Notes: a model not told the origin generated them from the letters alone. DNA of 64,000 bases from a virus (IMGVR_UViG_3300034069_000533:65947-129946), one strand, 5' to 3'. Positions 5,359 through 36,758 are shown, numbered from the stretch's first letter. A program made the numbers and translations.

Positions 5359-5379
5359 TTTCGCGCTTTTTGGTTTTAT

Positions 5380-5453
5380 CAGAGCGTAGCTCAGCTTGGT
5401 AGAGCGTTTGCTTTGGGAGCAAAATGCCGTTGGTTCAAATCCAACCGTTCTGA
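5380..5453 (+). tRNA. tRNA-Pro: tRNA-Pro (TGG)
   Basis: D-arm tagctcagcttggtagagc, anticodon loop tTTGGGa, T-loop ggttcaaatcc, acceptor cagagcg/cgttctg. Confidence 0.75.
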
Positions 5454-5459
5454 TTTTAT

Positions 5460-5540
5460 GGTAAGGTGGGCGAGTGGTTGATGCCGTCAGACTGTAAATC
5501 TGATCCTTCGGGCGCGTTGGTTCGAATCCAACCCTTACCA
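5460..5540 (+). tRNA. tRNA-Tyr: tRNA-Tyr (GTA), class II with long variable arm
   Basis: Acceptor ggtaagg/ccttacc, anticodon stem tcaga/tctga with loop cTGTAAa, variable arm tccttcgggcgc, T-arm gttgg-ttcgaat-ccaac. Confidence 0.75.
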
Positions 5541-6344
5541 TTACCTCAAAACCTGCAAGCCAGGGAACACCGGCTCAGAATTACACCGGCAACGAATCTC
5601 GGAACCGGGCTTAATGCCCGGATCACTCCATTTATAGGTTTTGCCATCACGCACCCGATGCGTTGGTCTAACGCGCTCATCTTGGCTAGTGCGCCAGATA
5701 TATTCGTCAATGCCAACCGAACGCTGCCGCATTTCGGCTAGCTGGCCATTCAATCGGCCAATCTGATCGCGCGCAATTAACTCAGCCCGACTACGGCCAA
5801 CGCCCGCGCGATCCTGCACAATCTTTGCAAGGTCTTTCATGGACGCGCCTTGCGTAAAGGCTCGCACCATTTCCCCACGCATTTGCTCAATAATGCGGTC
5901 AGGGATTGATTTAATTAATGCTAAGTTTTCCTGTTCCCACGCTTGTAGCATACCCGCCAATTGCGGCTCGCCGCGCAGAATATCCACCCCATATGCCGCC
6001 CTTACCTGCTTTCGCCAATCGGTTAGGTTCTTTGCATTAATCTGACGGCCAATGGGTTGAACGGTATTTAAGCCGTCTAGCAGTCTTTTTGCGATCTTAT
6101 CTGCGACGCCAAGCAAAAAACTAGCTAGCGTGGAATACCATGCGTCAACGCGCTGGTTACGCTCAGCGGCAACATCAGCAATAATCATCGGGCCAATGGT
6201 TTTTAGATCATTAAGCGCCGCGCGCTCCAAATCATTAACGATAGCTAGCAGCTTCGCTTTATATTCTAGCTCTGCCGTTAATGGGTAGCGAAGCGGCGGA
6301 ATTTTATTCTTCCGCCGCCGCACCATGGTTGCCGCTATGGCCAT
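5541..6344 (-). CDS. phage head morphogenesis protein, Mu F-like / SPP1 gp7 family
   Basis: 267 aa; C-terminal signature RVRPTHRVRDGKTYKWSDP...CRCNSEP is typical of Mu F-like minor head proteins; sits between portal and scaffold. Confidence 0.6.
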   Translation of the reverse strand: MAIAATMVRRRKNKIPPLRYPLTAELEYKAKLLAIVNDLERAALNDLKTIGPMIIADVAAERNQRVDAWYSTLASFLLGVADKIAKRLLDGLNTVQPIGRQINAKNLTDWRKQVRAAYGVDILRGEPQLAGMLQAWEQENLALIKSIPDRIIEQMRGEMVRAFTQGASMKDLAKIVQDRAGVGRSRAELIARDQIGRLNGQLAEMRQRSVGIDEYIWRTSQDERVRPTHRVRDGKTYKWSDPGIKPGSEIRCRCNSEPVFPGLQVLR

Positions 6345-8231: not shown

Positions 8232-11200
8232 CTTAATAGCGCCTTCGCTCTTTCTAGTGCCGAAGTCTTAACTTGCACAATTTCAAATGCGTCGCTTAAT
8301 CCGTCAACAATATCATCATGCGCACCGCCGGGAAACGTACCTAATTCTTCTAATAAAAACCTATTCCAATCGCCGCGAAGCATAAAAACATTGCCTGCAT
8401 TAACCTGACTGGCAAATGGCGCGGCGCGCGTTGCCTTGTCGCCGGTCGGCCGGGAAATGCTGATCTTGTAGCCCGCCAGTTTGCGTGACAGGTATTGGAC
8501 TTGCGCCTTACCAGCTTGGCCAGGGTCTTGCGGCAAGCGGATGGTGACGTTTTTGCCGTCCTGGCTGGCTGTCCCTGTAAGCAATCGCTCAACATCATCC
8601 GGCCCGCCACGCTCGCGCTTAAGGTCGGCAATGACGTAGCCGCCATTGGGCATCCTGCCGAGTAAGGGTCCAGCGGTCCAGTCTGGATCACGCCCGCCGG
8701 TTTCTGCGGTGCTGGCCAAATCCCAAGCGCGGCAAAACGTGCAACCGACAGGGACCGCATCAATGATTTGGATATTGCCGGTTTTAAAAATGGAGCCTTC
8801 CAACGGGCGCGGGCTTTGCTGGTAAAGCGAAAACCAATCGCGCTGACCGGGGCCTTTTTCGGACTCGGCTTTGATCTTTAGGATTTCAGCAGCGTAGCCG
8901 TAAGAATCGTCGGCCCATAACATTTCGCCCGGAGCGCGGCCTAATTGATCGTTTTCTTCGGCAATGGCCGGGATTTTAATGACTTCCCAATCGCCAAAAT
9001 CATCTTGTAATAATCGTCCAGCTAAATCGTCCTCGTGCCAGCGTGTATTATGGCTAACCAAGCCATTTGCAATAAAATTTTCTGTATTCGCAATTTGAAC
9101 GTCAAAAACCTCCTCAACCCCCGCCGGGGTTATCGTCTGGATTTGGTCTAGCGTGAAGTCGCAAATAGGCGGCAAGCGCATCTGCGGCTTCTGACGTTTT
9201 AATATAGCCTGCTGCAAGGTTGCAATCATTGCAGAGAAGCGCCCGCACTTTGCCGGAATCGTGGCAATGGTCAACGCACAATTTTCCGCCCCAATGGGCG
9301 CGAACGTTTTTGCCGGGAGGTTGCCCGCAAACAGCGCATAATCCATTTTGCTGCTTAACAAAGGCGTCGTAAATTTCTGCTGTAATTCCGTAGCGGTGTT
9401 TAATATGCGCCGCGCGCCTGTCTTTAGCATTAACGGAAGGCGGTCGCACGCCATCCGCCCAACGCTTTTTATTGTAATGAGACGCGCAATATCCGCGCAC
9501 CCTAACCGGCTTGCCGCAGCCCTCATGGGCGCAATTGATGCCTTTCCACTTACCCCATTGGCCCGGAAGATTTCTTGCCCCTGGCGTAAGTTTCTCGTCC
9601 TGATCCATTGCGGCTGTCCATTAACGCTCACAAGGAACGGATGCCTTGCGTTTGCCCGGACAGTTTTACCCGAAGTCATCTTGATTTCAAAGACTGGATC
9701 AGGACCATTATTTTTCCAGTTTAGCACTTTTGATGTTGACAAAACGCCATTATCATATGTCGCAACATTGTCGCCAACCCGAATGTCCCTAAGCGGCCTC
9801 TCTGATCCATCGTGCATTAAAACCGGAGTGTCGCCGGTCATACACTGGACCAAGCACACGGACGCGCCCGGCTTTAAACGAGTGCGTAAATCGGCCCTAT
9901 ACCAGTTATAAGCCTTTTCCCGATATGTCGGGCTGTCAGCGTCAGCCCGTGACTTTACCGGGTCATCAATAATAGCGCAGTTATGAACAAGTAAACCATT
10001 TGCAAAAAAGCATTCCGTATCTTCTATTTGCAAATCATAAACGTCTTTTTCTCCGCATACTCGCTCAACCATGGCCACAGAATCACAGACGGAATTGAAC
10101 GCTCCGCTGCGTGAAGTTTGGTGTGGCATGAGCGACAAAGAATAACTAAATTCTCTAATCTGTGATCCGTTGGATTCATATTTATATGATGCACATTCGG
10201 GTTTTTGTCCGAATTGCACACCACGCATTTCAAACTGTCGCGCTCCCAAATCTTCTGTTTCGCAGCAAACCATTGCCGCGTCATGCCGCGATCCGATCCG
10301 TTCCCGTGCCGCCAAGCTGGATTTGCTTTGCCCTTCATTAATTCCGAATGGCTGGCGTTCTTGCATTTCACACTGCAATAAGCCCCGGTTCCCGCATGCG
10401 TCTTCGGCGTGAACGTATCTCCGCATGCTTGACAAGCTCGCGCCAGAATGGGCTTGCGTCTCATGTCCGCAGCCTTGCGGACCCCATCCACTCGACAAGC
10501 TTCTGAGCAAGTTGAACGCGTGCGAGGCATTCCCTCCAACGAATTGCCACAAGCTACGCAGGTTCGATCCAGCATCCCCCGCGCCGCGTTCGTCGTGCGA
10601 GTTGAGCATGTTTTGCCGCAGTAAAGTGGCCGGTCGGGGAATTTCCTGACTTCCGCCGCAAGCCTCTCGCCCGGCGCTTGGCATCGCGCGCAGGAGAACG
10701 TCAGCCACAGCGAGGGACGCAGCTTGTGTCCAACCGTTAGCAGTTTTGAATCTATGGTTTCCCGTTGCTTCAACCACTTTTCCAGCGGCAGAGCTAATCC
10801 GCCAGATATTCGCGGACTTGCGCCTAGCGACAGCAACCACTCGCTTAAAAACTGTTTTATTGGTGCGTTCGTCATAAGACAAAACATAGCCGGTTTTCGT
10901 GCCGGGCAAAACGTCTTCAATCGGGACTTCACCTAACGGTGTCGTTACCATCGTTCCCGCAACGATGCAATCTGCACGGAAGCCAGCAATACCGCCACCA
11001 ACACCGGCAGATTTATAAGTGCATCCGTTGGACGCGCTCCACATTTCTACAGATTCATTTAATAGGCCATAACCTAAAATATCTTCATTATCTTTAATCA
11101 TTGTCTGCACACGCTTGCTAAATGAATCAGCAAGCGATGACGTGTGCGAAGCTGCCAAAATATTCCTATTGGGAAAATTCAGCATATACCATGCTGGAAA

Positions 11201-11476
11201 CAATACGCTAACGTAAGTAGATTTGGCCGATCCTGGCGGCATCGTAACGATTAATCGCTTAATGTCACCACGCGCCACGGCTTCTAGTTTGGAAATTAAA
11301 AAACGATGGTGAAGCGCTGGCTCCTGTTTTAAGGGATGCAACGCATACGTCGCCCAATCAGTTAAGCTTGCTTTTATCCGGCGTTTCAGAATCTCCGTCA
11401 GCTTGACTCGCAAGGAAGCTGGCAAGTTCGTCTCTAAAAGCCGCGTCAAGTTCTTCGTTGTTAAGTGCTGCGACAT
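8228..11476 (-). CDS. terL: terminase large subunit interrupted by two inteins
   Basis: Walker A PPGSAKST in the N-extein. Intein 1 runs from C-IVAGTMVTTPLG (block A), through TGNH (block B), to FANGLLVHN-C. Intein 2 runs from C-MTGDTPVL through ARHPF to FIANGLVSHN-T. The C-extein resumes with TRWHEDDLAGRL, a terminase nuclease motif. The reading frame stays open for 1082 codons. Confidence 0.75.
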   Translation of the reverse strand: MSQHLTTKNLTRLLETNLPASLRVKLTEILKRRIKASLTDWATYALHPLKQEPALHHRFLISKLEAVARGDIKRLIVTMPPGSAKSTYVSVLFPAWYMLNFPNRNILAASHTSSLADSFSKRVQTMIKDNEDILGYGLLNESVEMWSASNGCTYKSAGVGGGIAGFRADCIVAGTMVTTPLGEVPIEDVLPGTKTGYVLSYDERTNKTVFKRVVAVARRKSANIWRISSAAGKVVEATGNHRFKTANGWTQAASLAVADVLLRAMPSAGREACGGSQEIPRPATLLRQNMLNSHDERGAGDAGSNLRSLWQFVGGNASHAFNLLRSLSSGWGPQGCGHETQAHSGASLSSMRRYVHAEDACGNRGLLQCEMQERQPFGINEGQSKSSLAARERIGSRHDAAMVCCETEDLGARQFEMRGVQFGQKPECASYKYESNGSQIREFSYSLSLMPHQTSRSGAFNSVCDSVAMVERVCGEKDVYDLQIEDTECFFANGLLVHNCAIIDDPVKSRADADSPTYREKAYNWYRADLRTRLKPGASVCLVQCMTGDTPVLMHDGSERPLRDIRVGDNVATYDNGVLSTSKVLNWKNNGPDPVFEIKMTSGKTVRANARHPFLVSVNGQPQWIRTRNLRQGQEIFRANGVSGKASIAPMRAAASRLGCADIARLITIKSVGRMACDRLPLMLKTGARRILNTATELQQKFTTPLLSSKMDYALFAGNLPAKTFAPIGAENCALTIATIPAKCGRFSAMIATLQQAILKRQKPQMRLPPICDFTLDQIQTITPAGVEEVFDVQIANTENFIANGLVSHNTRWHEDDLAGRLLQDDFGDWEVIKIPAIAEENDQLGRAPGEMLWADDSYGYAAEILKIKAESEKGPGQRDWFSLYQQSPRPLEGSIFKTGNIQIIDAVPVGCTFCRAWDLASTAETGGRDPDWTAGPLLGRMPNGGYVIADLKRERGGPDDVERLLTGTASQDGKNVTIRLPQDPGQAGKAQVQYLSRKLAGYKISISRPTGDKATRAAPFASQVNAGNVFMLRGDWNRFLLEELGTFPGGAHDDIVDGLSDAFEIVQVKTSALERAKALLR
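9114..9608 (-). CDS. HNH endonuclease ORF nested in intein 2 of terL, in a different frame
   Basis: 164 aa with CAHEGCG...CASHYNKKRW...CAVCGQ...LCVDHCHDSGKVRALLCNDCN, a clear HNH/EndoVII-like signature; frame offset relative to terL. Confidence 0.55.
   Translation of the reverse strand: MDQDEKLTPGARNLPGQWGKWKGINCAHEGCGKPVRVRGYCASHYNKKRWADGVRPPSVNAKDRRAAHIKHRYGITAEIYDAFVKQQNGLCAVCGQPPGKNVRAHWGGKLCVDHCHDSGKVRALLCNDCNLAAGYIKTSEAADALAAYLRLHARPNPDDNPGGG
10024..10932 (-). CDS. Zn-finger/HNH endonuclease ORF nested in intein 1 of terL, in a different frame
   Basis: 302 aa; the C-terminal half has several CxxC pairs and CVVCNSDKNPNVHHIN...DHRLENLVILCRSCHTKLH (HNH); the N-terminal ~90 aa overlap the Hint N-domain and look non-protein-like. 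Confidence 0.45.
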   Translation of the reverse strand: MKSRLKTFCPARKPAMFCLMTNAPIKQFLSEWLLSLGASPRISGGLALPLEKWLKQRETIDSKLLTVGHKLRPSLWLTFSCARCQAPGERLAAEVRKFPDRPLYCGKTCSTRTTNAARGMLDRTCVACGNSLEGMPRTRSTCSEACRVDGVRKAADMRRKPILARACQACGDTFTPKTHAGTGAYCSVKCKNASHSELMKGKANPAWRHGNGSDRGMTRQWFAAKQKIWERDSLKCVVCNSDKNPNVHHINMNPTDHRLENLVILCRSCHTKLHAAERSIPSVILWPWLSEYAEKKTFMICK

Positions 11477-26744: not shown

Positions 26745-27446
26745 CTAACTGAAGTCTGGCCTATAAATTTCGATGTAATCACAATGAACGTAAGCGTTTC
26801 TTTCTCTTCCTCCCGTCCTAATTTCTAACAAATAAACCAAACCAAAGGCACAATACGCATTTAATATTTCGTTCCATATTTTGTCACTATCAAATCTTGC
26901 AATTAACCTCTTTAAATCTCTAAGGGTCAATCCCCTTTTGTCTGCCTTATAAATTATTGAATACAATTTAACCATTTCTGCCAGTCTCGGCTTTGATCCC
27001 CTGATTTCAAATAATTTTTCCGCCTCGTTAAACTTCTGCCTGCACAAATTGCCTTCGGGCGTATCTGGAAATATTTTATCCAATAAACTGCTTTCTTTGT
27101 CTTTTTCTTTATATTCAACGCTTCCTAAATGCCCTGGCACAATAAATTGAACATTCGTCAAATCTGAATACATATTTCTAAAATGGACTATCCACTGCGC
27201 CTCTAATTCCATCCATCCTTCGTAGCATGAATCAATTTCTTCAATTAGCGGATAATGGCCATTGTCGTATAATTCACGAATCCATTTGCATTTCTCTGAC
27301 CTAAATTCAGTCGAGCCGTAAGCAAATGCTTCGTCCATGTGCTGCTTCAATCGGCGGTCAAGTCCGTGGAATGTCTTGCCAACGTACCTGACGCGTTTAT
27401 TCCTTGGGTCTTTCAAAACATAAATACGCGTTTTAAAACCGGACAT
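26745..27446 (-). CDS. GIY-YIG homing endonuclease
   Basis: N-terminal RIYVLKDPRNKRVRYVGKT...L..R...H matches GIY-(10-11)-YIG; low-GC island. Confidence 0.55.
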   Translation of the reverse strand: MSGFKTRIYVLKDPRNKRVRYVGKTFHGLDRRLKQHMDEAFAYGSTEFRSEKCKWIRELYDNGHYPLIEEIDSCYEGWMELEAQWIVHFRNMYSDLTNVQFIVPGHLGSVEYKEKDKESSLLDKIFPDTPEGNLCRQKFNEAEKLFEIRGSKPRLAEMVKLYSIIYKADKRGLTLRDLKRLIARFDSDKIWNEILNAYCAFGLVYLLEIRTGGRERNAYVHCDYIEIYRPDFS

Positions 27447-27843
27447 TTTTTACCTCGCAATTTGCTGCCCGACAGCATTTGCGGAAGCCGGCAAACTTTT
27501 GTCAATCAAACGTCTTCGTGATGTACTTTTGTCATCCGAAACGAAAAACCGCTGACAGAAAGCCATAACCCTTGACTCCCCCGACACCCTTCCCCATCCT
27601 CTGCGGCGAGGCGCCCGGCTCCTGTTAAGCACTTACGCCAGTCCCCCAAGACATTCGGCTGTATAGATGGCCACCGGGGGCCGGGGCGCCTCACCAAGAT
27701 TGCCCGCCTGAGACGCGCTCCGCGCGCTGGCGGGCGCAGGCCGGGGTTTCAGGGGTGTCCCTCGGCCGGCGGGTGCAAGACCCGCCATAGGCTTCACCGG
27801 GCGGGACTCCTCCTTCTCCACCACGCCCGGCGCGGCTAGCGAG

Positions 27844-28157
27844 CGGTGAAAATCCGCCGGCCGGGTGCTGTTCCCGATGCGGCATCCGGCAGAGGCATGG
27901 GAGCGCAGATTGCGCCGCGTTTGCCATGCTGCGGCCGGTGGAAACCCGGCCCTCTATTTTCCCTTGATCTTTCTGCAATGACCGGATATACCATTCTCCG
28001 GTTTCGCCGCTAGCGCTTGTCACGCCAGCGGCAGACGGGCCTCCTCCTCCCGGCAGCCGGTGAAAGCCCGGCTGTGCTGCGATTGCTGGAACAAGACGCA
28101 ACACAGAGACATGACGGCGCCGCACACGCCATCATGTCGCGGCCGGTGAAAGCCCGG
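27844..28157 (+). repeat. array of four GC-rich hairpin repeats (GCCGGTGAAAGCCCGGC family)
   Basis: Copies at 27844-27860 (cggtgaaaatccgccgg), 27934-27950, 28056-28072 and 28141-28157, spaced ~90-120 nt apart, in an ~800-bp region with no convincing ORF. Confidence 0.5.
27965..27993 (+). promoter_or_regulatory. putative promoter TTGATC-N17-TATACC, sharing a 20-nt motif with the rsr promoter
   Basis: TTGATCTTTCTGCAATG here versus TTGATCTTTTTGCAATG at 30245. Confidence 0.4.
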
Positions 28158-28257
28158 CGCCAATTTCACCTTACATAAAGCTGTTTATGTTTGCCTTGCC
28201 TTACACAAGGCACTCGCCTATTGAAGTTGTGCCACAAACTTTAATGGAGCAATAACC

Positions 28258-28482
28258 ATGTCCGATGTTGACCAGCGCGCAATGCTAGCGTGGCAAACTC
28301 TGGCGTTTGATCGCTTGGCTGCCGTCAACCAGCTTATTGACGCGCTGAATTCCGCATTACGCGATGTTGCCGACGCTGGCATGACGGTAAATCAGCCAAG
28401 GATCGAATCCCACCCGGCCAGCGCTGGCGGCTTGTCGGTGCCGTCCTACAGGATTTTGCCGATTAAGGGTAAGATTGGCTAA
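28258..28482 (+). CDS. hypothetical protein
   Basis: 74 aa; RBS ggag; stop overlaps the next start (TAATG). Confidence 0.4.
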   Translation: MSDVDQRAMLAWQTLAFDRLAAVNQLIDALNSALRDVADAGMTVNQPRIESHPASAGGLSVPSYRILPIKGKIG

Positions 28483-29021
28483 TGGCAACATTCTTTACCT
28501 CCGACACGCATTTTGGTCACACCGGCATTATTGCTCATTGCCACCGGCAATTTGCCAGCGTGCAGGAGATGGACGCGACGCTAATCCGCAACTGGAATGC
28601 GTTTGTTGGCCCGCGTGACGAAGTTTGGCACCTTGGCGATTTTACACTGGCTGGCACCGATGATGCCATTAATTATCTTAACCAGCTAAACGGCAAAATT
28701 CATCTGATTTGGGGCAATCATGACCGCAACAGCGTGCGGTCACTGTCCCGATGGGTGACAAGCGACTATGCGCGCGAAATCAACCTTGACGGCCACAAGC
28801 TGACGCTCTGCCATTACGCAATGCGCGTTTGGAATCAATGTGCGAGAGGCGCGCTCATGCTGTATGGCCACAGCCATACCGGCTTGCCCGGCACATCGCA
28901 GAGCCAGGATGTTGGCGTTGACGCTTGGGACTTCCGCCCGGTGACGCTAGCTGACATTCTGCACCGCATGGCCGGCGCACCCGCGTTTGCCAGCGAAGAT
29001 CATCATTCCCCGGAGTTTTAA
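28482..29021 (+). CDS. calcineurin-like metallophosphoesterase
   Basis: Motifs SDTHFGH, GD, GNHD and HSH in the canonical order. Confidence 0.65.
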   Translation: MATFFTSDTHFGHTGIIAHCHRQFASVQEMDATLIRNWNAFVGPRDEVWHLGDFTLAGTDDAINYLNQLNGKIHLIWGNHDRNSVRSLSRWVTSDYAREINLDGHKLTLCHYAMRVWNQCARGALMLYGHSHTGLPGTSQSQDVGVDAWDFRPVTLADILHRMAGAPAFASEDHHSPEF

Positions 29022-29282: not shown

Positions 29283-29368
29283 GTCGAATCCGCAACGGAA
29301 AAATCTTCAACGCCGATGCATTTTTCCGTTGCGCCCCATCCAGAATGGCGGCATACATAGCGGGCCGG

Positions 29369-29426
29369 GTTTGGCGCAGGTCGCGGTTTCATCATGGAAC
29401 GAAAAACCGCAGCCGACTCTTTCCAA
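29369..29426 (+). ncRNA. Y-RNA-like hairpin RNA, unit 1 (stem only)
   Basis: 5' TTGGCGCAGGTCGCGGTTTCATC pairs imperfectly with 3' GAAAAACCGCAGCCGACTCTTTCCAA, giving a long bulged stem with a 10-nt loop; the same 5' and 3' motifs recur in five more units. Confidence 0.55.
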
Positions 29427-29477
29427 TCCGGTATTTACCGCCGCAGTAGCGGCGATCTACCGCCGCAGGGCGGGACG

Positions 29478-29557
29478 CTTGGTGTAGGTTACGGTTGCAT
29501 CTGTTTTGTAAACAGGCGTCCTTATGGGACACCGCACGCCGTTCCCGCTTATTCCAG
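29478..29557 (+). ncRNA. Y-RNA-like RNA, unit 2
   Basis: Starts cTTGGTGTAGGttacGGTTGCATC and ends cTTATTCCAG; internal hairpin ctgtttTGTAAacagg; flanked by a long inverted repeat (gcagggcgggacgc / gcgtcccgccctac). Confidence 0.45.
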
Positions 29558-29596
29558 CGTCCCGCCCTACGGCGTCTAACTCGGTAAAGGGGAATT

Positions 29597-29720
29597 CTTG
29601 GCGTAGGACGCGATTGCATCAGCAGGGAGCGGAGGTTGCCGGTTTGGAGTCCGGCCAGCGCCATTCGGGGCTGTAGCTCAACATAGAGCGCCGTTAAGCT
29701 TCGCATCCGATTATTTCCAG
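29597..29720 (+). ncRNA. Y-RNA-like RNA with permuted tRNA-like module, unit 3
   Basis: 5' cTTGGCGTAGG...GATTGCATC; T-arm-like gccgg-tttggag-tccgg; acceptor-like cagcgcc/ggggctg; D-arm tagctcaac-atagagcg; 3' ...TTATTTCCAG. Confidence 0.5.
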
Positions 29721-29759
29721 AATTCCCCTTTGCTGTGTTGGTTGCCGATCAGCGGGCAT

Positions 29760-29819
29760 CTTGGCGCAGGCTTCGGTTTCATCTCCGTAACATGAAAAAC
29801 CGCAGCCGATTATTTCCAG
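29760..29819 (+). ncRNA. Y-RNA-like hairpin RNA, unit 4 (stem only, paralog of unit 1)
   Basis: cTTGGCGCAGGcttcGGTTTCATC ... GAAAAACCGCAGCCGATTATTTCCAG. Confidence 0.55.
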
Positions 29820-29858
29820 ATGCCCGCTTAACGGCGCCTCGATTAAAAGAGTGGTTAT

Positions 29859-29990
29859 TTTGGCGCAGGTTTCGGTTTCATCAAAAGCAGTGTGCCGTTG
29901 GTTCGATTCCAACCAGCCTCCCCAAAATTTATGGAGGCTGTAGCTCAGTGGTAGAGCAACCGCCAGTAGACCGATACCGCCTCTTTCCAA
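29859..29990 (+). ncRNA. YrlA-like Y RNA with canonical circularly permuted tRNA-like domain, unit 5
   Basis: 5' TTGGCGCAGGtttcGGTTTCATC, then T-arm gttgg-TTCGATTCC-aac, acceptor 3' cagcctc, loop ccccaaaatttat, acceptor 5' gaggctg, D-arm tagctcagtggtagagc, then 3' aaccgcc...CTCTTTCCAA. This T-arm / acceptor / D-arm order is a tRNA opened at the anticodon loop and closed at the acceptor end. Confidence 0.65.
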
Positions 29991-30027
29991 ATAACCGCTC
30001 TTTTAATTAGGTCTGTAAAGTGGTTTG

Positions 30028-30175
30028 CTTGGCGTAGGATTTGGTTGCATCGCAGCGCGCGGGTTCGATTCCCGCACAGTCTCAAGCCTAGGCAGCCGGG
30101 AGATTGTTGGGCGAGTGGTAAGCCAGGGGGAGCAATCCCCCGCTTCGGCAATATGCTAATTCCGCTAAATTTCCA
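30028..30175 (+). ncRNA. Y-RNA-like RNA with permuted tRNA-like module, unit 6
   Basis: 5' cTTGGCGTAGGatttGGTTGCATC; T-arm gcggg-TTCGATTCC-cgc; acceptor-like cagtctc/gagattg; D-like ggc-gagtggtaa-gcc; 3' ...TAAATTTCCAG. Confidence 0.5.
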
Positions 30176-30244
30176 GCAAACCGCTTTACCGACTTAATTC
30201 CCGCAAGCTGTCAGACAGCCCCAATTTTTCCCCAATTCTCTGTT

Positions 30245-30273
30245 GATCTTTTTGCAATGGGCGCGTAGCCTAA
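30245..30273 (+). promoter_or_regulatory. putative rsr promoter TTGATC-N17-TAGCCT with the shared TTGATCTTTTTGCAATG motif
   Basis: Same -35 and spacer sequence as at 27965. Confidence 0.4.
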
Positions 30274-30319
30274 ATTTGCGGGCCTATTTTGGCCCCATCG
30301 CAGAAGGAGCAACCATCCC

Positions 30320-31753
30320 ATGTCTCGCATCAACGTCGCCCGGTCTTCCGGCGTATCCCCGTTCGTTCCGCACGAAGCGGGCGCCAATCAGGCGCTTTCC
30401 GCTGAGCAGACGCTAGAGCGGCTTGTGTCGTGCTGCCTGCTTGGCGAGGATCAGTTTTATCTCAACGGCCAGTCCGTCCAGACTGCGATTGCTGAGGTCG
30501 CCAAGCAGGTTAAGCCGGAATTTGTGGTGTCGCTCGCCGTCAAGGCGCGGCTTGAGCTTGGGCTGCGGCATGTCCCGCTGCTGCTGCTGACGCTCACGCT
30601 CGATACCGACGCGGGGCGCAACGCCATCCGCAAGCAGGCGGCGCCGATTCTGCGCACGCCGAAGGATGCGATGGATTTGCTGGCGCTCTACTGGCGAGCG
30701 GGCAAGCGTCCGGTGCCGCACGTTTTCAAGCAGCTTTTCCGTCAGCGCTTCGCGGTTTGGTCTGACTACCAAATCCAGAAGTATGGCACGCTATCGGCGC
30801 GCGTTAGCGTCCGGCTGCGTGATGTGCTGCGGCTGTGCCATGCCGATCCGCGCAATTTTTACTCCAACGCTCTGGCTGATGATCGTAACGCAATTACTGT
30901 TGCGCGCGAGGCTTTGTTTAAGTCGCTGACCGACGACACCATTCGCGCGCCCGACACCTGGGAGTCCGCGCTGTCTGCGGCCGGGCCGGATGGCGACAAG
31001 CGCGCCATTTGGGAGCGGCTGTTGGCTGAGCGGAAGCTTGGCGCGCTGGCGCTGGTCCGCAACCTGCGGAACATGGAGGCGGCCGGCGTCACCCCGGCGC
31101 TCGTGATCGCGGCCATGGAGACGGTCAAGGCGGGCGACGTATGGCCCTGGCAGGCTCTAGCGGCGGCGCGTGAGGCCCCGACCTATACGCACGCCCTGGA
31201 TGCCCTCATGCTGCGATCTGCCGGCTCCCTGCCGCGCCTGCCGGGGCATACGGGCGTGCTGGTAGACGTGTCGGGGTCCATGGATCACGGGCTGTCCACC
31301 AAGGGCACGATGAAGCGCATGGACGCGGGCGCCGGGCTTGCCGTGGTGCTGAATGAGGTTTGCGAGGCGTCCACCATCGCCAGCTTTTCCGAATCCGTGG
31401 TGCTGGTTTCCAGCATCGCCATAGGCAAGCGCGGCGCGGGTCTGGCCAGCGACATTGTACGCAGCCAGCCGCATGGCAGAACCTATCTGGCGCAGGCGGT
31501 GGAAACCTTCCTGCGCTGCCATCCGATCATTGACCGGCTGGTAATTCTGACCGACGAACAGGCGCAGGACCACTTCACGTCCCCGCCGAATTTGCCGGTG
31601 TATGTCGTCAATCTCGCGTCCACTGAGCGCGGGATGAACATGCAACAGAAGGTAACGCGTATCAACGGTTGGTCCGGCAATGTTATTCGCTGGCTGGCTC
31701 AGGATATTGCCGGCACCATCGGGCAGGTTGGCGACGGTAGCGAGGAAGATTAA
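30320..31753 (+). CDS. rsr: Ro60-related protein (TROVE domain plus vWA domain), Rsr ortholog
   Basis: The N-terminus NQALSAEQTLERLVSCCLLGEDQFYLNG aligns with the Ro60/Rsr N.xGG.A..L....L.RFL.LGSEGGTYY block. The C-terminal vWA has a MIDAS-like DVSGSM. Y-RNA-like genes lie immediately upstream, and the terminator gccgggcagtaatgcccggcttttttt follows. Confidence 0.75.
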   Translation: MSRINVARSSGVSPFVPHEAGANQALSAEQTLERLVSCCLLGEDQFYLNGQSVQTAIAEVAKQVKPEFVVSLAVKARLELGLRHVPLLLLTLTLDTDAGRNAIRKQAAPILRTPKDAMDLLALYWRAGKRPVPHVFKQLFRQRFAVWSDYQIQKYGTLSARVSVRLRDVLRLCHADPRNFYSNALADDRNAITVAREALFKSLTDDTIRAPDTWESALSAAGPDGDKRAIWERLLAERKLGALALVRNLRNMEAAGVTPALVIAAMETVKAGDVWPWQALAAAREAPTYTHALDALMLRSAGSLPRLPGHTGVLVDVSGSMDHGLSTKGTMKRMDAGAGLAVVLNEVCEASTIASFSESVVLVSSIAIGKRGAGLASDIVRSQPHGRTYLAQAVETFLRCHPIIDRLVILTDEQAQDHFTSPPNLPVYVVNLASTERGMNMQQKVTRINGWSGNVIRWLAQDIAGTIGQVGDGSEED

Positions 31754-31761
31754 CCAACGAA

Positions 31762-31789
31762 GCCGGGCAGTAATGCCCGGCTTTTTTTA
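31762..31789 (+). terminator. rho-independent terminator after rsr
   Basis: gccgggcagtaatgcccggc followed by a T7 run. Confidence 0.7.
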
Positions 31790-33966: not shown

Positions 33967-34155
33967 TTAGCGCCGCCTAGCGTCCTCAAACAATGGCGTC
34001 AGGACAACCGCGAGCGCCGTCATGGCTACGCCCAATATTGCGGAAGCGAGAATTGGCACCGGCCCAAAAATCTCGCCAAAGAAGTAAGCAAAATTAACCG
34101 TAAACCCAATAATCAGAATAGCAGCCAGATAAAGCGGCATGTTTTTCTCCCTCAC
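33967..34155 (-). CDS. small membrane protein
   Basis: 62 aa with two hydrophobic helices; translationally coupled upstream of the SPFH gene. Confidence 0.35.
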   Translation of the reverse strand: MREKNMPLYLAAILIIGFTVNFAYFFGEIFGPVPILASAILGVAMTALAVVLTPLFEDARRR

Positions 34156-35081
34156 TTCCCTTCAACGCTGCCGGGCAGCATCATCATGGGAGTCGGCCCG
34201 GAGCCACCGAAAATCTGCCGGGGCATGGCGCCGTCCCACCGTTCAGCCTGCCGCAACCGCACATAGCTGTCGCCAGCGGCCCCAAGCGCTGCCGCCTGCG
34301 CCCGAATGGCACCAGCCTCAGCCTCACCCCGGAGCGCGATGCTGCGGGCCTCTGCGGCTGCCTGTAGCTCGGTCGCCTGCGCCTTGGCCTTGGCCTCGGC
34401 AACCGCGCTGTCAGCCCGCCCACGCGCCGCCTGAATGGCAGCGTTGGCCTCACCGCGCGCCGCATCCTCGCGCGTCTTGGCCTCCGTCTCAACCTGCGCC
34501 TGCCGCTGCTGCGCGATGGCCGCAGTGTTTACCGCATCACGGAATTCCTTGGAGTAATCAAAATTATCAAGTCGCAGGTCGTTAATCAGGATGCCATAAC
34601 GCTCCATCGCTTCTGGCTTCACGCGCTCAAAGATTGCCTGCTGAATGCGCGCCCGACCGCCGGGCAATTCCTCAGCGCGATGCGTGCCAATCTCAGCCTT
34701 GGCGCGGGCAACAATCAGGCTGGCGAGTAGCGCCTCAACGTTGCCGCGAATACGCCATACCTGCTCAACGTTGGCTTCCGGCACGATCCAATCAACCACG
34801 AAATCAACGTCAACGTGCTGCGGCTGGTTGCCGCTGGTAAACACTTCCAAATTCTTCAGCGTAAGAATGCGATTGGTCAAGCTAATATCGTCAACGCCGT
34901 CAATAAACGGCACCTTAAAGCCCATGCCGGGCTGAGCAATGCCGACAAAAGCGCCATTGCGGGTCAACACCCCACGCTCAGTGGCATGCACGTTGTAGAA
35001 GCTGCCGCCAATGGTGGTAATGCCAACCAGCCCAACCACGCCGAGAGCGGCAACACCGCCAATAAATCCAGCATTCGACAT
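34152..35081 (-). CDS. SPFH/band-7 (stomatin/HflK-like) membrane protein
   Basis: N-terminal TM segment, SPFH core, C-terminal Ala/Glu-rich coiled coil (AQVETEAKTREDAARGEANAAIQAARG...). Confidence 0.6.
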   Translation of the reverse strand: MSNAGFIGGVAALGVVGLVGITTIGGSFYNVHATERGVLTRNGAFVGIAQPGMGFKVPFIDGVDDISLTNRILTLKNLEVFTSGNQPQHVDVDFVVDWIVPEANVEQVWRIRGNVEALLASLIVARAKAEIGTHRAEELPGGRARIQQAIFERVKPEAMERYGILINDLRLDNFDYSKEFRDAVNTAAIAQQRQAQVETEAKTREDAARGEANAAIQAARGRADSAVAEAKAKAQATELQAAAEARSIALRGEAEAGAIRAQAAALGAAGDSYVRLRQAERWDGAMPRQIFGGSGPTPMMMLPGSVEGK

Positions 35082-35778: not shown

Positions 35779-35868
35779 GGTATGTGTTTTCCTTCTCTGT
35801 TGTGGTTAGCGAGTTAGGTATAGCGCTCTGGCTGGAACATTGCAAGCGTTCCGTACAGTTGCGGCGAA
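35779..35868 (-). promoter_or_regulatory. variant promoter TTGCAA-N17-TATACC with a different palindrome GGAACgcttgcaatGTTCC over the -35
   Basis: Upstream of the wHTH gene; possible autoregulatory operator. Confidence 0.35.
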
Positions 35869-36758
35869 TTTTCTTGAGCAACCTCAGAACCGGACTTGGA
35901 GCCAAACAGCGCGCCAATCAGCCCCTTACCCTTTTCTTCATGCATGACAACCTGACAATCATCCTGAATGCCAAGCTGCTCGGCCATGGCGTAAGCTGCC
36001 TGCCGGCGCGAACCGATACCATCAATCAGGCTGTATTCAAGCGCTGTCTGCGCATCAAAAATCATGGCGCCCATTTCGTCGGTAATAACATTTTCGTCAA
36101 TCATCCGGCACGATGAAACATGATTAACAAAATCGGCGTACTGTCGCTTCAGCATGCCACTAATGCCGTCATATTCCTCCTGCGTCATTGCGCGGTGCGG
36201 ATTCAAAATATCCTTGCCGCGCCCGGCGCTCAGCGTGCGAAAGTCAATGCCGCCGCCGCTGGCATCCGTCTCAATTCCGCCAAGCAATCCCTTCTGCGCA
36301 ATAACCTTGCGATAAAAAGCGTGCGTGCCAAGCGTCACGCCAATTGATCCAATGATGCTGCCAGGATCGGCGTAAATCTTGTCAGCCGCCACCATGGCCC
36401 AAACGCCACCCGATGCCGAAATGCCCTCAACATGGGCAAAAATCGGCGCTTTGTCGCCATAGTCAGAAATACCCTCGGCCAGCGCCTCAGCCGCCGATAC
36501 CGTGCCGCCGGGCGTGATAAACTGCATCAGTACGCCCTTGATGCTTTTGTCATCTTCGGCGCGGTCCAAGAGGTTCTGAATGTCCAGCGCCGATGCGCTG
36601 CGGTCAAGCGCGCTGAACGCGCCACGGGGCTTAACCGTAGTCATCACGCCTTCAACCCGGATCAGCAGAATCTTATTCTTGGAGTGACGATCACCCCAAA
36701 CATAGCGCGTGCTAAGCTTCTCGCCCTTGGTCGCGGTCTTACTCGAAAAAATACCCAA
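35814..36758 (-). CDS. S49-family (SppA/ClpP-fold) serine peptidase, NfeD-like
   Basis: GGTVSAAEALAEGI...APIFAHVEGISASGGVWAMVAADKIYADPGSIIGSIGV matches the SppA catalytic region; paired with the SPFH gene. Confidence 0.55.
   Translation of the reverse strand: MGIFSSKTATKGEKLSTRYVWGDRHSKNKILLIRVEGVMTTVKPRGAFSALDRSASALDIQNLLDRAEDDKSIKGVLMQFITPGGTVSAAEALAEGISDYGDKAPIFAHVEGISASGGVWAMVAADKIYADPGSIIGSIGVTLGTHAFYRKVIAQKGLLGGIETDASGGGIDFRTLSAGRGKDILNPHRAMTQEEYDGISGMLKRQYADFVNHVSSCRMIDENVITDEMGAMIFDAQTALEYSLIDGIGSRRQAAYAMAEQLGIQDDCQVVMHEEKGKGLIGALFGSKSGSEVAQENSPQLYGTLAMFQPERYT

What the first reader, a model, noticed from the sequence alone, without database searches (positions are those of the whole stretch)
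29283..31789. Six tandem Y-RNA-like genes with circularly permuted tRNA-like modules upstream of a Ro60/TROVE (Rsr) gene
The 477-aa ORF at 30320-31753 has the Ro60 N-terminal TROVE signature and a C-terminal vWA/MIDAS motif (DVSGSM). Directly upstream, six structured units all start with (c)TTGGCGYAGG-N4-GGTTKCATC and end with TTTCCA(A/G). The two ends pair into a long bulged stem, as in Y RNAs. Units 3, 5 and 6 also carry a tRNA-like domain in permuted order: T-arm (GTTCGATTCC), acceptor 3', loop, acceptor 5', D-arm (TAGCTCAGTGGTAGAGC). This is the order expected when a tRNA is opened at the anticodon and closed at the acceptor end, i.e. the YrlA-type architecture. Bacterial rsr loci usually carry one or two Y RNAs, so six diversified paralogs in a mobile element is unusual. 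It suggests a phage-encoded Ro60 RNP with several RNA partners.
Basis: partly seen in the sequence, partly recalled or inferred. Interest (0 to 1): 0.85.

Follow-up and report, generated by a model that had tools for sequence, protein, structure and literature searches.

The report
Phage Ro60 gene with six Y-RNA-like genes
A previously unknown phage carries a gene for a Ro60-type RNA-binding ring protein. Just upstream lie six different small structured RNA genes, three of which imitate rearranged tRNAs. This system is already known from bacteria and phages, but this version is expanded and divergent, and databases do not annotate it.

Summary
Six units at 29358-30199 (+) share a 23-nt 5' motif (6 matches, 0 expected by chance) and a 3' CCG-N3-6-TTCCAR motif. 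Each closes into its own long terminal stem. A covariance model trained without units 5 and 6 finds all six units and nothing else in the 64 kb.

Across 32 units from 12 related loci, the two-helix core is 92% paired, against 64% in shuffles and 37-47% in slid controls. 19 of 22 pairs show compensatory changes.

Units 5 and 6 carry clean circularly permuted tRNA modules, in the order T-arm, acceptor 3', loop, acceptor 5', D-arm. Unit 3 has a degenerate one. Units 1, 2 and 4 have none.

The 477-aa ORF is a Ro60/TROVE protein: Pfam TROVE E = 2.6e-15, an invariant MIDAS motif, and an AF2 model whose 13 best PDB matches are all Ro60. The best match is Thermus phage phiLo Ro60.

Related arrays sit unannotated next to TROVE genes in published phages: seven units in Caulobacter phage CcrColossus and about four in two Xanthomonas phages. 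All the RNAs score below Rfam's YrlA threshold.

Verdict: a divergent, expanded variant of the known phage Ro60/Y-RNA system. Expression and binding are untested.

The parts
29358..29439 (+). Unit 1, short (S) type. Conserved core 29371-29425 with a short outer stem and a small apical hairpin. No tRNA-like module.
   Evidence: Model R2 67.3 bits, E = 1e-15. Motifs. The fold is not better than shuffles, z = -0.84, so this is the weakest unit.
29461..29574 (+). Unit 2, medium (M) type. Core 29479-29556 with a 19-bp unique outer stem. The apical module is two small hairpins (29501-29515 and 29518-29530).
   Evidence: R2 62.8 bits. Inverted repeat I3, 19 nt, 95% complementary. z = -6.1. The same two-hairpin module, with compensatory changes, occurs in L004 5681-5781 and L012 2469-2568.
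29577..29740 (+). Unit 3, long type with a degenerate permuted tRNA-like module: T-arm-like 29638-29655 (8-nt loop), acceptor 3' 29656-29662, ATTC loop, acceptor 5' 29667-29673 (6 of 7 pairs), D-arm-like 29676-29689 (loop lacks GG).
   Evidence: R2 58.3 bits. Rfam YrlA partial match 25.2 bits, E = 0.008, over positions 23-86 of the model. z = -4.3. It failed the strict T-arm/acceptor search. Coordinates.
29744..29835 (+). Unit 4, short (S) type. Core 29761-29818 with an 11-bp outer stem plus further pairs. No tRNA-like module.
   Evidence: R2 79.9 bits, the best in the window. Inverted repeat I5. z = -5.2, and the MFE and centroid structures match the covariation-supported structure.
29842..30007 (+). 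Unit 5, long type with a canonical class-I-like permuted tRNA module: small hairpin 29887-29895, T-arm 29897-29913 (loop TTCGATT), acceptor 3' 29914-29920 followed by C-CCA (to 29924), 13-nt loop, acceptor 5' 29934-29940 (7 of 7 pairs), TA, D-arm 29943-29957.
   Evidence: R2 61.8 bits, although the unit was not in the training set. Rfam YrlA 37.4 bits, E = 2.5e-6, full length. The re-permuted construct is called a tRNA by ARAGORN, 0 of 5 shuffles. z = -5.2. Its halves are most similar to the phage's own tRNA-Pro.
30005..30199 (+). Unit 6, long type with a class-II-like permuted tRNA module: T-arm 30059-30075, acceptor 3' 30076-30083, 18-nt loop, acceptor 5' 30100-30107 (7 of 7 pairs), D-arm 30109-30124, then an extra GNRA-capped hairpin 30126-30141. 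The inner stem is diverged.
   Evidence: R2 44.9 bits, E = 1.5e-9, not in the training set. Rfam YrlA only 18.1 bits. The re-permuted construct is called a tRNA by ARAGORN. z = -3.1. 12 of 12 nt of the D-arm are identical to the phage's tRNA-Tyr. Inverted repeat I2, 25 nt, 88% complementary.
30243..30271 (+). Possible promoter or operator in front of the TROVE gene: TTGATC, 17 nt, TAGCCT. The 17-nt motif TTGATCTTTYTGCAATG occurs exactly twice in the window; the other copy is at 27964.
   Evidence: This is inference only: the generic sigma-70 scan did not report it.
30320..31753 (+). Ro60/TROVE protein gene (477 aa): helical-repeat ring plus a vWA domain with MIDAS residues D316, S318, S320, T388 and D412. 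RBS AAGGAG at 30304-30309.
   Evidence: Pfam TROVE E = 2.6e-15, 57 bits against a cut-off of 23. PHROG 850, E = 1.9e-33. phmmer to phiLo Ro60 (9KOP/9L5Y), E = 2.4e-20 over residues 35-459. AF2 pLDDT 82.9. The top 13 Foldseek PDB hits are all Ro60, TM 0.55-0.68. The MIDAS residues are invariant in 23 relatives.
31760..31788 (+). Intrinsic-terminator-like hairpin with a T-run that ends the TROVE transcription unit.
   Evidence: Read directly from the sequence: AAGCCGGGCAGTAATGCCCGGC followed by TTTTTTT.
28482..29021 (+). Calcineurin-type metallophosphoesterase (179 aa) on the same strand, upstream of the array. A possible functional partner in RNA-end healing.
   Evidence: Pfam Metallophos_2 E = 1.3e-8. 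It is 62% identical to the phosphoesterase encoded directly downstream of the TROVE gene in relative L015. The functional link is inferred.

Best explanation
This is a phage-encoded Ro60/Y-RNA ribonucleoprotein module.

The array encodes six paralogous Y-RNA-like non-coding RNAs on the same strand as the Ro60/TROVE gene. Each RNA pairs its 5' and 3' ends into a long stem. That stem is unique in sequence on the outside and carries a conserved element at its inner end:
- a bulged U;
- two G:C pairs;
- an asymmetric internal loop (5' YGYA opposite 3' G-N-Y-U-N-U-U-U);
- a second helix.

By analogy with Y RNAs, this conserved element is the docking site for the TROVE ring.

The far end of each RNA is a swappable module. 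It is a short hairpin in units 1 and 4, a two-hairpin junction in unit 2, and a circularly permuted tRNA mimic in units 3, 5 and 6. The second helix then takes the place of the anticodon stem. The modules would tether the ring to different partners, such as an exoribonuclease like PNPase or tRNA-recognising and RNA-repair enzymes. They could also gate access of substrate RNAs to the ring's cavity.

The units are probably released from a longer precursor. The 7-bp acceptor stems make units 5 and 6 plausible RNase P substrates. Unit 5 also has an encoded C-CCA and a 13-nt loop.

Shown here: the repeat architecture, the covarying structure, the tRNA mimicry, the Ro60 fold, and the strict co-location with TROVE genes.

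Inferred: transcription, processing, binding, and the identity of the partners.
For: Motif and structure:
- 6 motif matches against 0 expected.
- The unique outer stems are complementary in every unit.
- Covariation across 32 units from 12 loci: 92.0% of cells paired against 64.4% shuffled and 37-47% slid; 19 of 22 pairs change on both sides; 194 compensatory cells. The first round, on 24 units, agrees.

Specificity:
- Model R2 finds all six window units, including the two it was not trained on, and nothing else in the 64 kb.
- Nearly all R2 matches in 15 loci lie beside the TROVE gene on its strand, at E <= 5e-5 in the metagenomic loci and <= 0.003 in the GenBank phages. Elsewhere there are only two matches, both with E > 0.1: a minus-strand one in L014 and one in L002, which was not fetched by a TROVE match.

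tRNA mimicry:
- YrlA model alignments for units 5, 3 and 6.
- 9 of 12 long units have T-arm / 7-nt acceptor 3' / loop / 7-nt acceptor 5' / TA / D-arm. The acceptor stems pair at 6-7 of 7 positions and differ in sequence between units.
- 9 of 9 re-permuted constructs are called tRNAs by ARAGORN, against 0 of 45 shuffles.

Protein.

The unit types are kept across phages whose TROVE proteins share only about 53-60% identity.

Precedent:
- Y RNAs are encoded next to Ro60 in 254 bacteria and 22 phages. M. smegmatis YrlA and YrlB are processed from one precursor. The 7-bp-acceptor YrlA of M. smegmatis is cut by RNase P and receives CCA (PMC4201824; bioRxiv 10.1101/312249).
- phiLo Ro60 binds two upstream Yrl RNAs, and the RNP binds host PNPase (PMC12135203).
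Against: - There is no expression, processing or binding data.
- No unit reaches the Rfam YrlA gathering score (maximum 37.4 against 69).
- The published Ro-binding motif GNCGAAN0-1G is only approximated. GGCGYAGG differs at the fifth position, and many relatives have GGTGTAGG.
- Unit 1 is not thermodynamically distinguishable from shuffles.
- The covariation counts come from an alignment fitted to the model, which favours the structure.
- Relative L005 has three short units and no tRNA-like one. The tRNA mimic is therefore not obligatory.
- The Pfam vWA_Ro60 match is below its cut-off (18.7 against 27.7).
Confidence: 0.8

Rival explanations
1. The units are not free-standing RNAs. They are a structured leader of the TROVE mRNA: repeated binding sites through which the TROVE protein regulates its own synthesis or message stability.
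For: - The units lie on the same strand, directly upstream.
- No convincing terminator lies between unit 6 and the ORF. The only candidate is a weak 5-bp hairpin at 30207-30219, and the number of terminator-like sites is no higher than chance.
- M. smegmatis Y RNAs are co-transcribed with rsr (PMC4201824).
Against: - In relative L004, two of the four units lie downstream of the TROVE gene.
- In L013 and CcrColossus the array extends 350-1,150 nt upstream of the TROVE gene, and in L013 it directly follows a run of seven tRNA genes.
- A candidate promoter motif lies between unit 6 and the ORF.
- The elaborate, diversified tRNA mimics have no obvious use in a leader.
- Being co-transcribed and then processed is compatible with the main explanation.
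Confidence: 0.08
2. The tRNA-like units act mainly on their own as decoys or sponges for host tRNA-targeting enzymes, such as anticodon nucleases, modification enzymes or defence effectors. On this reading the TROVE protein only stabilises them or is unrelated.
For: - The modules resemble particular tRNAs: unit 5 the phage tRNA-Pro, and unit 6 the D-arm of tRNA-Tyr.
- A Ro60-like protein of phage Bas63 counters the ppl defence system (preprint PMC11482910).
- Phage RNA-repair genes accompany TROVE in some relatives: an RNA ligase in L014, and a phosphoesterase plus RlaP in L015.
Against: - Half of the units have no tRNA-like part, and L005 has none at all, yet all keep the conserved stem element.
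- That element is the most conserved part of every unit, which points to a common protein partner.
- No anticodon loop mimic is present in units 3 and 5.
Confidence: 0.08
3. The array is decayed debris of a phage tRNA gene cluster: junctions of tandem tRNA genes and pseudogenes with no function of their own.
For: - Rfam's tRNA model scores 35.2 bits across the unit 5/unit 6 junction.
- Arrays adjoin real tRNA genes in L004 and L013, and tRNA genes lie near the TROVE gene in the Rhizobium phage.
- Unit 5 keeps a C-CCA plus a spacer, like a tRNA-tRNA junction.
Against: - ARAGORN finds no tRNA in the array.
- Acceptor strands pair within a unit, not between neighbours.
- The non-tRNA stem element is conserved and covaries across 12 loci.
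- Three units have no tRNA-like sequence.
- The units are strictly linked to TROVE genes.
Confidence: 0.03
4. The units are copies of a small mobile or repetitive element (MITE- or REP-like) with terminal inverted repeats.
For: Each unit is bounded by inverted repeats.
Against: - The pattern is the reverse of a mobile element. The termini are unique to each copy, while the interior is conserved.
- There are no copies elsewhere in the 64 kb.
- All copies lie on one strand, next to one gene family.
Confidence: 0.01

Closest known systems
YrlA / YrlB Y-RNA-like RNAs with bacterial Rsr (Ro60), as in Salmonella Typhimurium and Mycobacterium smegmatis (Rfam RF02553; Chen et al. 2014, PMC4201824; YrlA structure 6CU1, bioRxiv 10.1101/312249)
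   Same: - The RNAs are encoded next to the Ro60 gene on the same strand.
- The 5' and 3' ends pair into a stem that carries a conserved bulged or looped element.
- The effector module is a circularly permuted tRNA (T-arm, closed acceptor stem, D-arm), with the Y stem in the place of the anticodon stem.
- A tRNA-like RNA is accompanied by shorter ones.
- The acceptor stems are 7 bp, as in M. smegmatis YrlA, which RNase P cleaves.
   Different: - All units are below the Rfam gathering score (at most 37.4 here and at most 52.3 in relatives, against 69).
- The conserved 5' motif is GGYGYAGG rather than GNCGAAN0-1G.
- The covariation-supported register of the stems differs from the one the YrlA model imposes.
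- There are six units instead of one or two.
- Three units, and all units in relative L005, have no tRNA-like domain.
- The outer stems are much longer (up to 19-25 bp).
Thermus phage phiLo Ro60 with Yrl1 and Yrl2 (PDB 9KOP, 9L5Y; PMC12135203)
   Same: - It is the closest solved protein (E = 2.4e-20, 24% identity, TM 0.68).
- It is phage-encoded.
- Its Y-like RNAs lie directly upstream of the gene.
- Some of its RNAs are simple stem-bulge-stem without a tRNA domain.
- The RNP was shown to bind host PNPase.
   Different: - phiLo has two RNAs, identified through a CGAA motif. Here there are six, with a different motif, and three of them are tRNA mimics.
- The hosts and phage lineages are unrelated.
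TROVE loci of published phages: Caulobacter phage CcrColossus (gp139), Xanthomonas phages MET23-P3 and Sopo, Brevundimonas phage Marchewka
   Same: - TROVE proteins are 36-41% identical to this one.
- The unit family is recognised by the model built here.
- Arrays lie in tandem upstream of the gene: seven units in CcrColossus, about four in the Xanthomonas phages, and at least three in Marchewka.
   Different: - The 5' motif variant is GTGGCGTAG...TACTTC and the 3' motif is TGTTCCCC.
- The units are not annotated in the records. One CcrColossus unit is annotated as tRNA-Gln, which ARAGORN does not confirm.
- I could not see the supplementary tables of Chen et al. 2014, so some of the tRNA-like units may already be listed there.
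Metazoan Y RNAs with Ro60 (Xenopus structure 1YVP)
   Same: - The protein has the ring-shaped Ro60 fold (TM 0.64-0.67).
- The RNA has a terminal stem with a bulged pyrimidine next to an asymmetric loop, plus a variable effector module.
- There are several paralogous RNAs per genome (two to four in vertebrates).
   Different: - There is no detectable sequence similarity in the RNA.
- Protein identity is only 14-15%.
- Metazoan Y RNAs are separate Pol III genes and have no tRNA-like domain.

Membership tests
Ro60 / TROVE protein family | TROVE domain detected above the curated threshold | tested here: met
   Pfam PF05731 at 57 bits against a cut-off of 23, E = 2.6e-15. PHROG 850 'RNA-binding protein', E = 1.9e-33.
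Ro60 / TROVE protein family | C-terminal vWA domain with a MIDAS motif (DxSxS...T...D) | tested here: met
   DVSGSM at residues 316-321. D316, S318, S320, T388 and D412 are invariant in 23 relatives. vWA folds appear among the Foldseek hits. The Pfam vWA_Ro60 profile itself is below its cut-off, 18.7 against 27.7.
Ro60 / TROVE protein family | Full-length fold of a helical-repeat ring closed by the vWA domain | tested here: met
   AF2 model with pLDDT 82.9 and pTM 0.75. The 13 best PDB matches are all Ro60 chains aligned over 475-554 columns, TM 0.55-0.68.
Ro60 / TROVE protein family | Binds Y RNA on the outer surface and RNA ends in the central cavity | not testable with these tools
   Needs binding assays or a complex structure.
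Y RNA (general definition) | Encoded close to the Ro60 gene (bacterial and phage cases) | tested here: met
   The six units end 121 nt upstream of the ORF. The related units found in 15 loci lie within about 1.2 kb of the TROVE gene on its strand; the only matches elsewhere are two with E > 0.1.
Y RNA (general definition) | 5' and 3' ends pair into a long stem that holds a conserved bulged helix | tested here: met
   Two helices with 92% of cells paired, 19 of 22 pairs compensatory, and controls at 37-64%. The bulged U, the GG:CC pairs and the loop sequences are conserved.
Y RNA (general definition) | Physically bound by Ro60 in vivo | not testable with these tools
   Requires immunoprecipitation or EMSA.
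YrlA (Rfam RF02553) | Score at or above the family's gathering threshold (69 bits) | tested here: not met
   Unit 5 scores 37.4, unit 3 scores 25.2 (partial match), unit 6 scores 18.1, and units 1, 2 and 4 give no match. Relatives reach at most 52.3.
YrlA (Rfam RF02553) | tRNA-like effector domain: T-arm, closed acceptor-like stem and D-arm in permuted order | tested here: met
   Met for units 5 and 6. Degenerate in unit 3, which has an 8-nt T loop and no GG in the D loop. Absent in units 1, 2 and 4.
YrlA (Rfam RF02553) | GNCGAAN0-1G motif in the Ro-binding stem (Chen et al. 2014) | tested here: not met
   The window units have GGCGYAGG or GGTGTAGG, with Y where the motif has its first A. Relatives often also have T in place of the C. 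This is a near variant, not the motif.
Genuine tRNA gene | Contiguous cloverleaf with an anticodon arm, detectable by tRNA finders | tested here: not met
   ARAGORN finds none between 29283 and 30320. The only Rfam tRNA match (29934-30084, 35.2 bits) joins the 5' half of unit 5 to the 3' half of unit 6 across a 60-nt insertion, which is an artefact of the permuted order.
Permuted tRNA genes that mature into functional tRNAs (as in the red alga Cyanidioschyzon; from my own knowledge) | 3' half upstream of 5' half, with an intact anticodon arm after circularisation and processing | tested here: not met
   The order of the halves is as required, but units 3 and 5 have no anticodon arm. The outer ends instead continue into the conserved Y stem. 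Unit 6 has an extra GNRA hairpin, not a 7-nt anticodon loop.

The most novel reading that the evidence does not exclude
The array is a panel of Ro60-tethered tRNA impostors, each copying a different tRNA class: unit 5 a class-I, tRNA-Pro-like tRNA, and unit 6 a class-II, tRNA-Tyr-like one. Some would be opened by RNase P into two-piece tRNA mimics with a real CCA end, since unit 5 encodes C-CCA. The phage would use the panel with its phosphoesterase, and in relatives with an RNA ligase or RlaP, in one of two ways. It could bait or sense host tRNA-cleaving defence nucleases, or it could bring repair and decay enzymes to damaged tRNAs. Copy number and module type would then track the host's defence repertoire.
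Probability: 0.15. Interest if true: 0.8.

Novelty: new variant of a known kind. Interest (0 to 1): 0.5.

Why it matters
Ro60/Y-RNA particles are known from animals, bacteria and a few phages, but what the RNA's effector module recruits is still largely open. This phage clade offers a natural experiment. One Ro60 protein has up to six or seven RNA partners that share a docking element and differ in their outer module: a hairpin, a two-hairpin junction, or a class-I-like or class-II-like tRNA mimic. These module types are conserved between distant phages.

That makes two ideas directly testable by pull-downs with each RNA: that each RNA recruits a different effector, and that the system acts in phage RNA repair or anti-defence.

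There are practical consequences as well:
- These RNAs fall below Rfam's YrlA threshold and are unannotated, or mis-annotated as tRNA, in published genomes such as CcrColossus.
- Their permuted halves create false tRNA calls that span two units.

The covariance model built here could be used to annotate them.

Tried and rejected
- **Rfam at gathering thresholds.** No Y-RNA family was reported. The only match was a spurious tRNA hit bridging units 5 and 6.
- **Exact 5'-motif scan of viral contigs.** It gave two loci, L001 and L002. Neither has a 3' partner or a convincing model match: L001 has no R2 match and L002 only one at E = 0.41. I treat both as chance matches.
- **First covariance model, R1, built from four short units.** It missed unit 6 and only half-matched unit 5. 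The second-round model R2 found both.
- **My first script for 3' partners.** It used the wrong pairing register, ignoring the bulged U, and gave nonsense. It was corrected.
- **Generic sigma-70 promoter and terminator scan.** It found nothing useful around the array, and counts were at or below chance. Transcript boundaries therefore remain unknown.
- **NCBIfam.** It gave no name for the TROVE protein or the two small flanking ORFs. Pfam found nothing for six small or unassigned neighbouring ORFs.
- **Group I intron idea.** I considered whether the 800-nt gene-free stretch beside the GIY-YIG gene holds one. Rfam found none at E <= 0.5.
- **Retron-like ncRNA.** The flanking inverted repeats suggested it. 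I rejected it because none of the ORFs scanned here matched a reverse transcriptase and the units track TROVE genes. I did not scan every ORF in the window.
- **Literature not available.** The supplementary tables of Chen et al. 2014 and the 2020 Annual Review on bacterial Ro60 are not held. I could not check whether multi-copy phage arrays are listed there. Full-text searches found no paper describing such arrays.

Full report
**What is in the sequence**

The stretch 29283-30319 holds no convincing ORF. It contains six copies of a 23-nt motif, TTGGYGYAGG-N4-GRTTKCATC, at 29371, 29479, 29598, 29761, 29860 and 30029. All six are on the + strand and are the only matches in the 64-kb window, against 0.00 expected from shuffles.

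Each copy is followed 54-146 nt later by CCG-N3-6-TTCCA(A/G). Outside the two conserved motifs, every unit is bracketed by an inverted repeat whose sequence is unique to that unit. These repeats are 19 nt at 95% complementarity for units 2 and 5, 18 nt at 89% for unit 4, 25 nt at 88% for unit 6, and 38 nt at 74% for unit 3.

The six units are packed almost end to end, from 29358 to 30199. They share only 51-81% identity in loose global alignments. The whole region is base-for-base identical in a contig assembled from a different sequencing run (L003, 0 mismatches in 9,566 nt). It is therefore not an assembly artefact.

**Context**

The window is part of a tailed phage. It encodes:
- a large terminase, portal, head protease and major head protein;
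- a primase and helicases;
- five tRNA genes.

The phage is new: its portal protein is under 30% identical to any GenBank phage.

**The protein**

The ORF at 30320-31753 (477 aa) is a Ro60-type protein on several independent lines of evidence:
- It matches Pfam TROVE at 57 bits (cut-off 23) and PHROG 850.
- By sequence, its only solved relative is the Ro60 of Thermus phage phiLo (9KOP/9L5Y, E = 2.4e-20 over residues 35-459).
- The MIDAS residues D316, S318, S320, T388 and D412 are invariant in 23 relatives.
- An AlphaFold2 model (pLDDT 82.9) has Ro60 chains as its 13 best PDB matches: phiLo, D. radiodurans Rsr, Xenopus and human. TM-scores are 0.55-0.68 over the full length.

A clean intrinsic terminator follows at 31760-31788.

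**Structure of the units**

In thermodynamic folds the ends pair into a long stem in all six units. Units 2-6 fold better than all 200 dinucleotide shuffles, with z from -3.1 to -6.1. Unit 1 does not (z = -0.84).

The stronger evidence is comparative. I collected loci that encode relatives of the protein, 39-61% identical, from viral, metagenome and genome collections and by exact look-up. I then built a covariance model in two rounds:
1. Model R1, from four short units, hit only sites beside TROVE genes at significant E-values (E < 0.1).
2. Model R2 was rebuilt from the 24 R1 hits, which did not include window units 5 and 6. It finds all six window units at 44.9-79.9 bits and nothing else in the 64 kb. 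It finds 1-4 units beside the TROVE gene in each of the 11 related loci.

On the 32 aligned units, the proposed two-helix core performs as follows:
- 92.0% of cells form standard pairs, against 64.4% after shuffling and 37-47% with the partner slid by 1-3 columns.
- 19 of 22 pairs change on both sides.
- There are 194 compensatory cells.

The alignment is fitted to the model, which favours the structure. However, the effect is very large, and the outer-stem complementarity is visible without any model.

The consensus, read from the outside inwards, is:
1. a unique outer stem of at least 11 bp;
2. one bulged U;
3. two invariant G:C pairs;
4. an asymmetric internal loop, 5' YGYA opposite 3' G-N-Y-U-N-U-U-U;
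5. a 9-11-bp second helix;
6. a conserved CAUC;
7. a variable apical module.

**The apical modules**

There are three kinds.

*Short (units 1 and 4).* The second helix simply continues into a hairpin.

*Medium (unit 2).* The module is two small hairpins. The same design, with compensatory changes, occurs in L004 and L012.

*Long (units 3, 5 and 6).* These carry a circularly permuted tRNA.
- In unit 5 the order is T-arm (GTTGG-TTCGATT-CCAAC), a 7-nt acceptor 3' strand, C-CCA, a short A/U-rich loop, a 7-nt acceptor 5' strand (7 of 7 pairs), UA, and D-arm (GCTC-AGTGGTA-GAGC).
- Unit 6 has the same order, with a class-II-type D-arm and an additional GNRA-capped hairpin.
- Unit 3 has the same order but is degenerate: an 8-nt T loop, no GG in the D loop, and 6 of 7 acceptor pairs.

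Rfam's YrlA model aligns to units 5, 3 and 6, at 37.4, 25.2 and 18.1 bits.

Nine of the twelve long units across all loci show the canonical arrangement. Their acceptor stems differ in sequence but pair at 6-7 of 7 positions, and many are closed by GNRA tetraloops. I cut each of the nine in the acceptor loop and joined the halves through a synthetic anticodon arm. ARAGORN called 9 of 9 constructs tRNAs, and 0 of 45 constructs with shuffled halves.

The only gathering-level Rfam hit in the array is a 'tRNA' at 29934-30084. It is the 5' half of unit 5 joined to the 3' half of unit 6, which is a by-product of the permuted order.

Unit 5's halves are most similar to the phage's own tRNA-Pro. Unit 6's D-arm matches the phage's tRNA-Tyr at 12 of 12 positions.

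**How it most likely works**

Three things point to a phage Ro60/Y-RNA particle with several alternative RNA subunits:
- the units occur beside TROVE genes and, apart from two matches with E > 0.1, nowhere else in the sequence I searched;
- they share one docking-like element;
- they have diversified outer modules.

The literature supplies the mechanism by analogy.
- Y RNAs bind Ro60 through a bulged helix in the terminal stem and use the other module to tether an effector. They also gate the ring's cavity (PMC4201824; bioRxiv 10.1101/312249).
- D. radiodurans Y RNA tethers Rsr to PNPase.
- phiLo Ro60 binds two upstream Yrl RNAs and then host PNPase (PMC12135203).
- M. smegmatis YrlA and YrlB are cut from one precursor. 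Its YrlA has a 7-bp acceptor stem, is cleaved by RNase P and gains CCA.

All tRNA-like units here have 7-bp acceptor stems. Unit 5 also has an encoded C-CCA and a 13-nt loop, so RNase P opening is plausible for it and for unit 6. The many units closed by tetraloops probably stay closed.

The neighbouring genes hint at RNA-end healing or repair:
- A calcineurin-type phosphoesterase lies upstream. It is 62% identical to one lying directly downstream of the TROVE gene in L015.
- L015 also has RlaP, L014 an RNA ligase and L013 an SNase nuclease.

A Ro60-like protein of phage Bas63 has been reported to counter the ppl defence system (preprint PMC11482910). Jumbo-phage TROVE proteins have been placed among RNA-repair genes (PMC7824862).

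Everything in this section beyond structure and linkage is inference.

**Comparison with what is known**

Phage-encoded Ro60 with Y-RNA-like partners has been known since 2014. Chen et al. reported 355 putative YrlAs in 254 bacteria and 22 phages, about 1.3 per genome, and phiLo was characterised in 2025.

The model built here finds:
- seven well-formed units in tandem upstream of gp139 of Caulobacter phage CcrColossus;
- about four units in each of Xanthomonas phages MET23-P3 and Sopo;
- at least three units in Brevundimonas phage Marchewka.

Two further phages give only weak signs of something similar. Rhizobium phage RHph_Y65 has sub-threshold YrlA hits, and crAss001 has a bridging 'tRNA' hit.

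None of these units is annotated. One CcrColossus unit is annotated as tRNA-Gln, which ARAGORN does not confirm. TROVE genes occur in 83 of 50,697 GenBank phage records.

Three things are different here, and to my knowledge undescribed in the papers I could search:
1. This is a subfamily that falls below Rfam's YrlA threshold. It has its own conserved motif, GGYGYAGG rather than GNCGAAN0-1G.
2. The arrays are expanded, with 3-7 members.
3. Three module types recur and are conserved between phages. One relative, L005, has no tRNA-like unit at all. [quoted passage not shown]

I could not read the supplementary tables of Chen et al. 2014, which may already list several CcrColossus RNAs.

**Verdict**

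The locus is a divergent, expanded variant of a known system rather than a new kind of system. I score interest as moderate. The system is known, but the array offers a well-defined set of RNAs for asking what Y-RNA effector modules recruit, and it exposes an annotation gap.

Noticed in passing
window 27447-28257: An ~800-nt stretch with no called gene lies between a GIY-YIG endonuclease gene (26745-27446, minus strand) and the + strand gene block. It is rich in G+C and hairpins, and has three copies of GCGGCCGGTG(A/G)AA(A/G)CCCGGC at 27925, 28047 and 28133. There is no Rfam match at E <= 0.5 and no group I intron signal.
   Followed up: partly
window 27964-27980 and 30243-30259: The 17-nt motif TTGATCTTTYTGCAATG occurs exactly twice in 64 kb, both times on the + strand. 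One copy lies ahead of the ORF block that contains the phosphoesterase. The other lies between unit 6 and the TROVE start codon. It may be a shared promoter or operator (TTGATC, 17 nt, TAnnnY) that co-regulates the two transcription units.
   Followed up: partly
window 29291-29333: A perfect 14-bp inverted repeat (CGCAACGGAAAAAT ... ATTTTTCCGTTGCG) with a 15-nt loop lies between the stop codon of the 85-aa ORF and unit 1. No T-run follows it, so it is not a typical terminator. It could be a processing site or a protein-binding site.
   Followed up: no
window 29934-30084; L020 (crAss001) 4136-4279; L017 (CcrColossus) 2001-2068: Tandem permuted tRNA-like units produce false tRNA calls that span two neighbours. 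One is an Rfam tRNA match at 35.2 bits here, and another at 46.6 bits lies downstream of the crAss001 TROVE gene. The 'tRNA-Gln' annotated in CcrColossus lies inside a Y-like unit and ARAGORN does not confirm it.
   Followed up: partly
L017 (Caulobacter phage CcrColossus NC_019406, record 107047-109800, reverse strand): Seven unannotated tandem Y-RNA-like units lie upstream of the TROVE gene gp139. Their motif variant is GTGGCGTAG...TACTTC / TGTTCCCC, and their flanking stems pair at 11-12 of 12 positions. Several have class-I-like or class-II-like permuted tRNA modules, and one encodes A-CCA-CCA after the acceptor 3' strand.
   Followed up: partly
window 8228-11476 (minus strand): The terminase large subunit is 1,082 aa and is interrupted by intein or Hint domains (Pfam Intein_splicing E = 1.9e-29 at residues 554-810; Hint-type matches at about 170-263).
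   Followed up: no
window 34152-35081 and 35814-36758 (minus strand); L020 6134-6323: A Band_7/SPFH protein and an S49/NfeD-like protease lie 2.4-4 kb downstream of the TROVE gene. crAss001 also has an SPFH/band-7 gene about 2.3 kb from its TROVE gene. This may be coincidence.
   Followed up: no
L015 2237-3567; L014 1949-2539; L013 4955-5365: Genes that suggest RNA repair or RNA metabolism lie next to TROVE in relatives. L015 has a phosphoesterase (62% identical to window 28482-29021) followed by RlaP. L014 has an RNA ligase (PF09414) just upstream of its array. L013 has an SNase-domain nuclease downstream.
   Followed up: partly
L005 3642-3962: This relative (48% protein identity) has three short-type units directly upstream of its TROVE gene. 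No tRNA-like unit was found anywhere in the 9.4 kb held.
   Followed up: partly
window 5379-5454 and 5459-5541 compared with 29897-29957 and 30109-30124: The tRNA-like module of unit 5 resembles the phage's own tRNA-Pro: the variable loop plus T-arm reads TGCCGTTGGTTC.A.TCCAACC, and the D-arm matches. The D-arm of unit 6 is identical at 12 of 12 positions to the phage's tRNA-Tyr. Together with the C-CCA plus spacer in unit 5's loop, this suggests the modules arose from junctions of tandemly duplicated tRNA genes.
   Followed up: partly
window 30278-30303: The TROVE 5' leader contains GCGGGCCTATTTTGGCCCCATCGCAG. This resembles parts of units 1 and 6 (repeat families D5 and D9), including the CATC element. 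It could be a relic of a seventh unit or a site where the protein binds its own mRNA. Model R2 does not score it.
   Followed up: no
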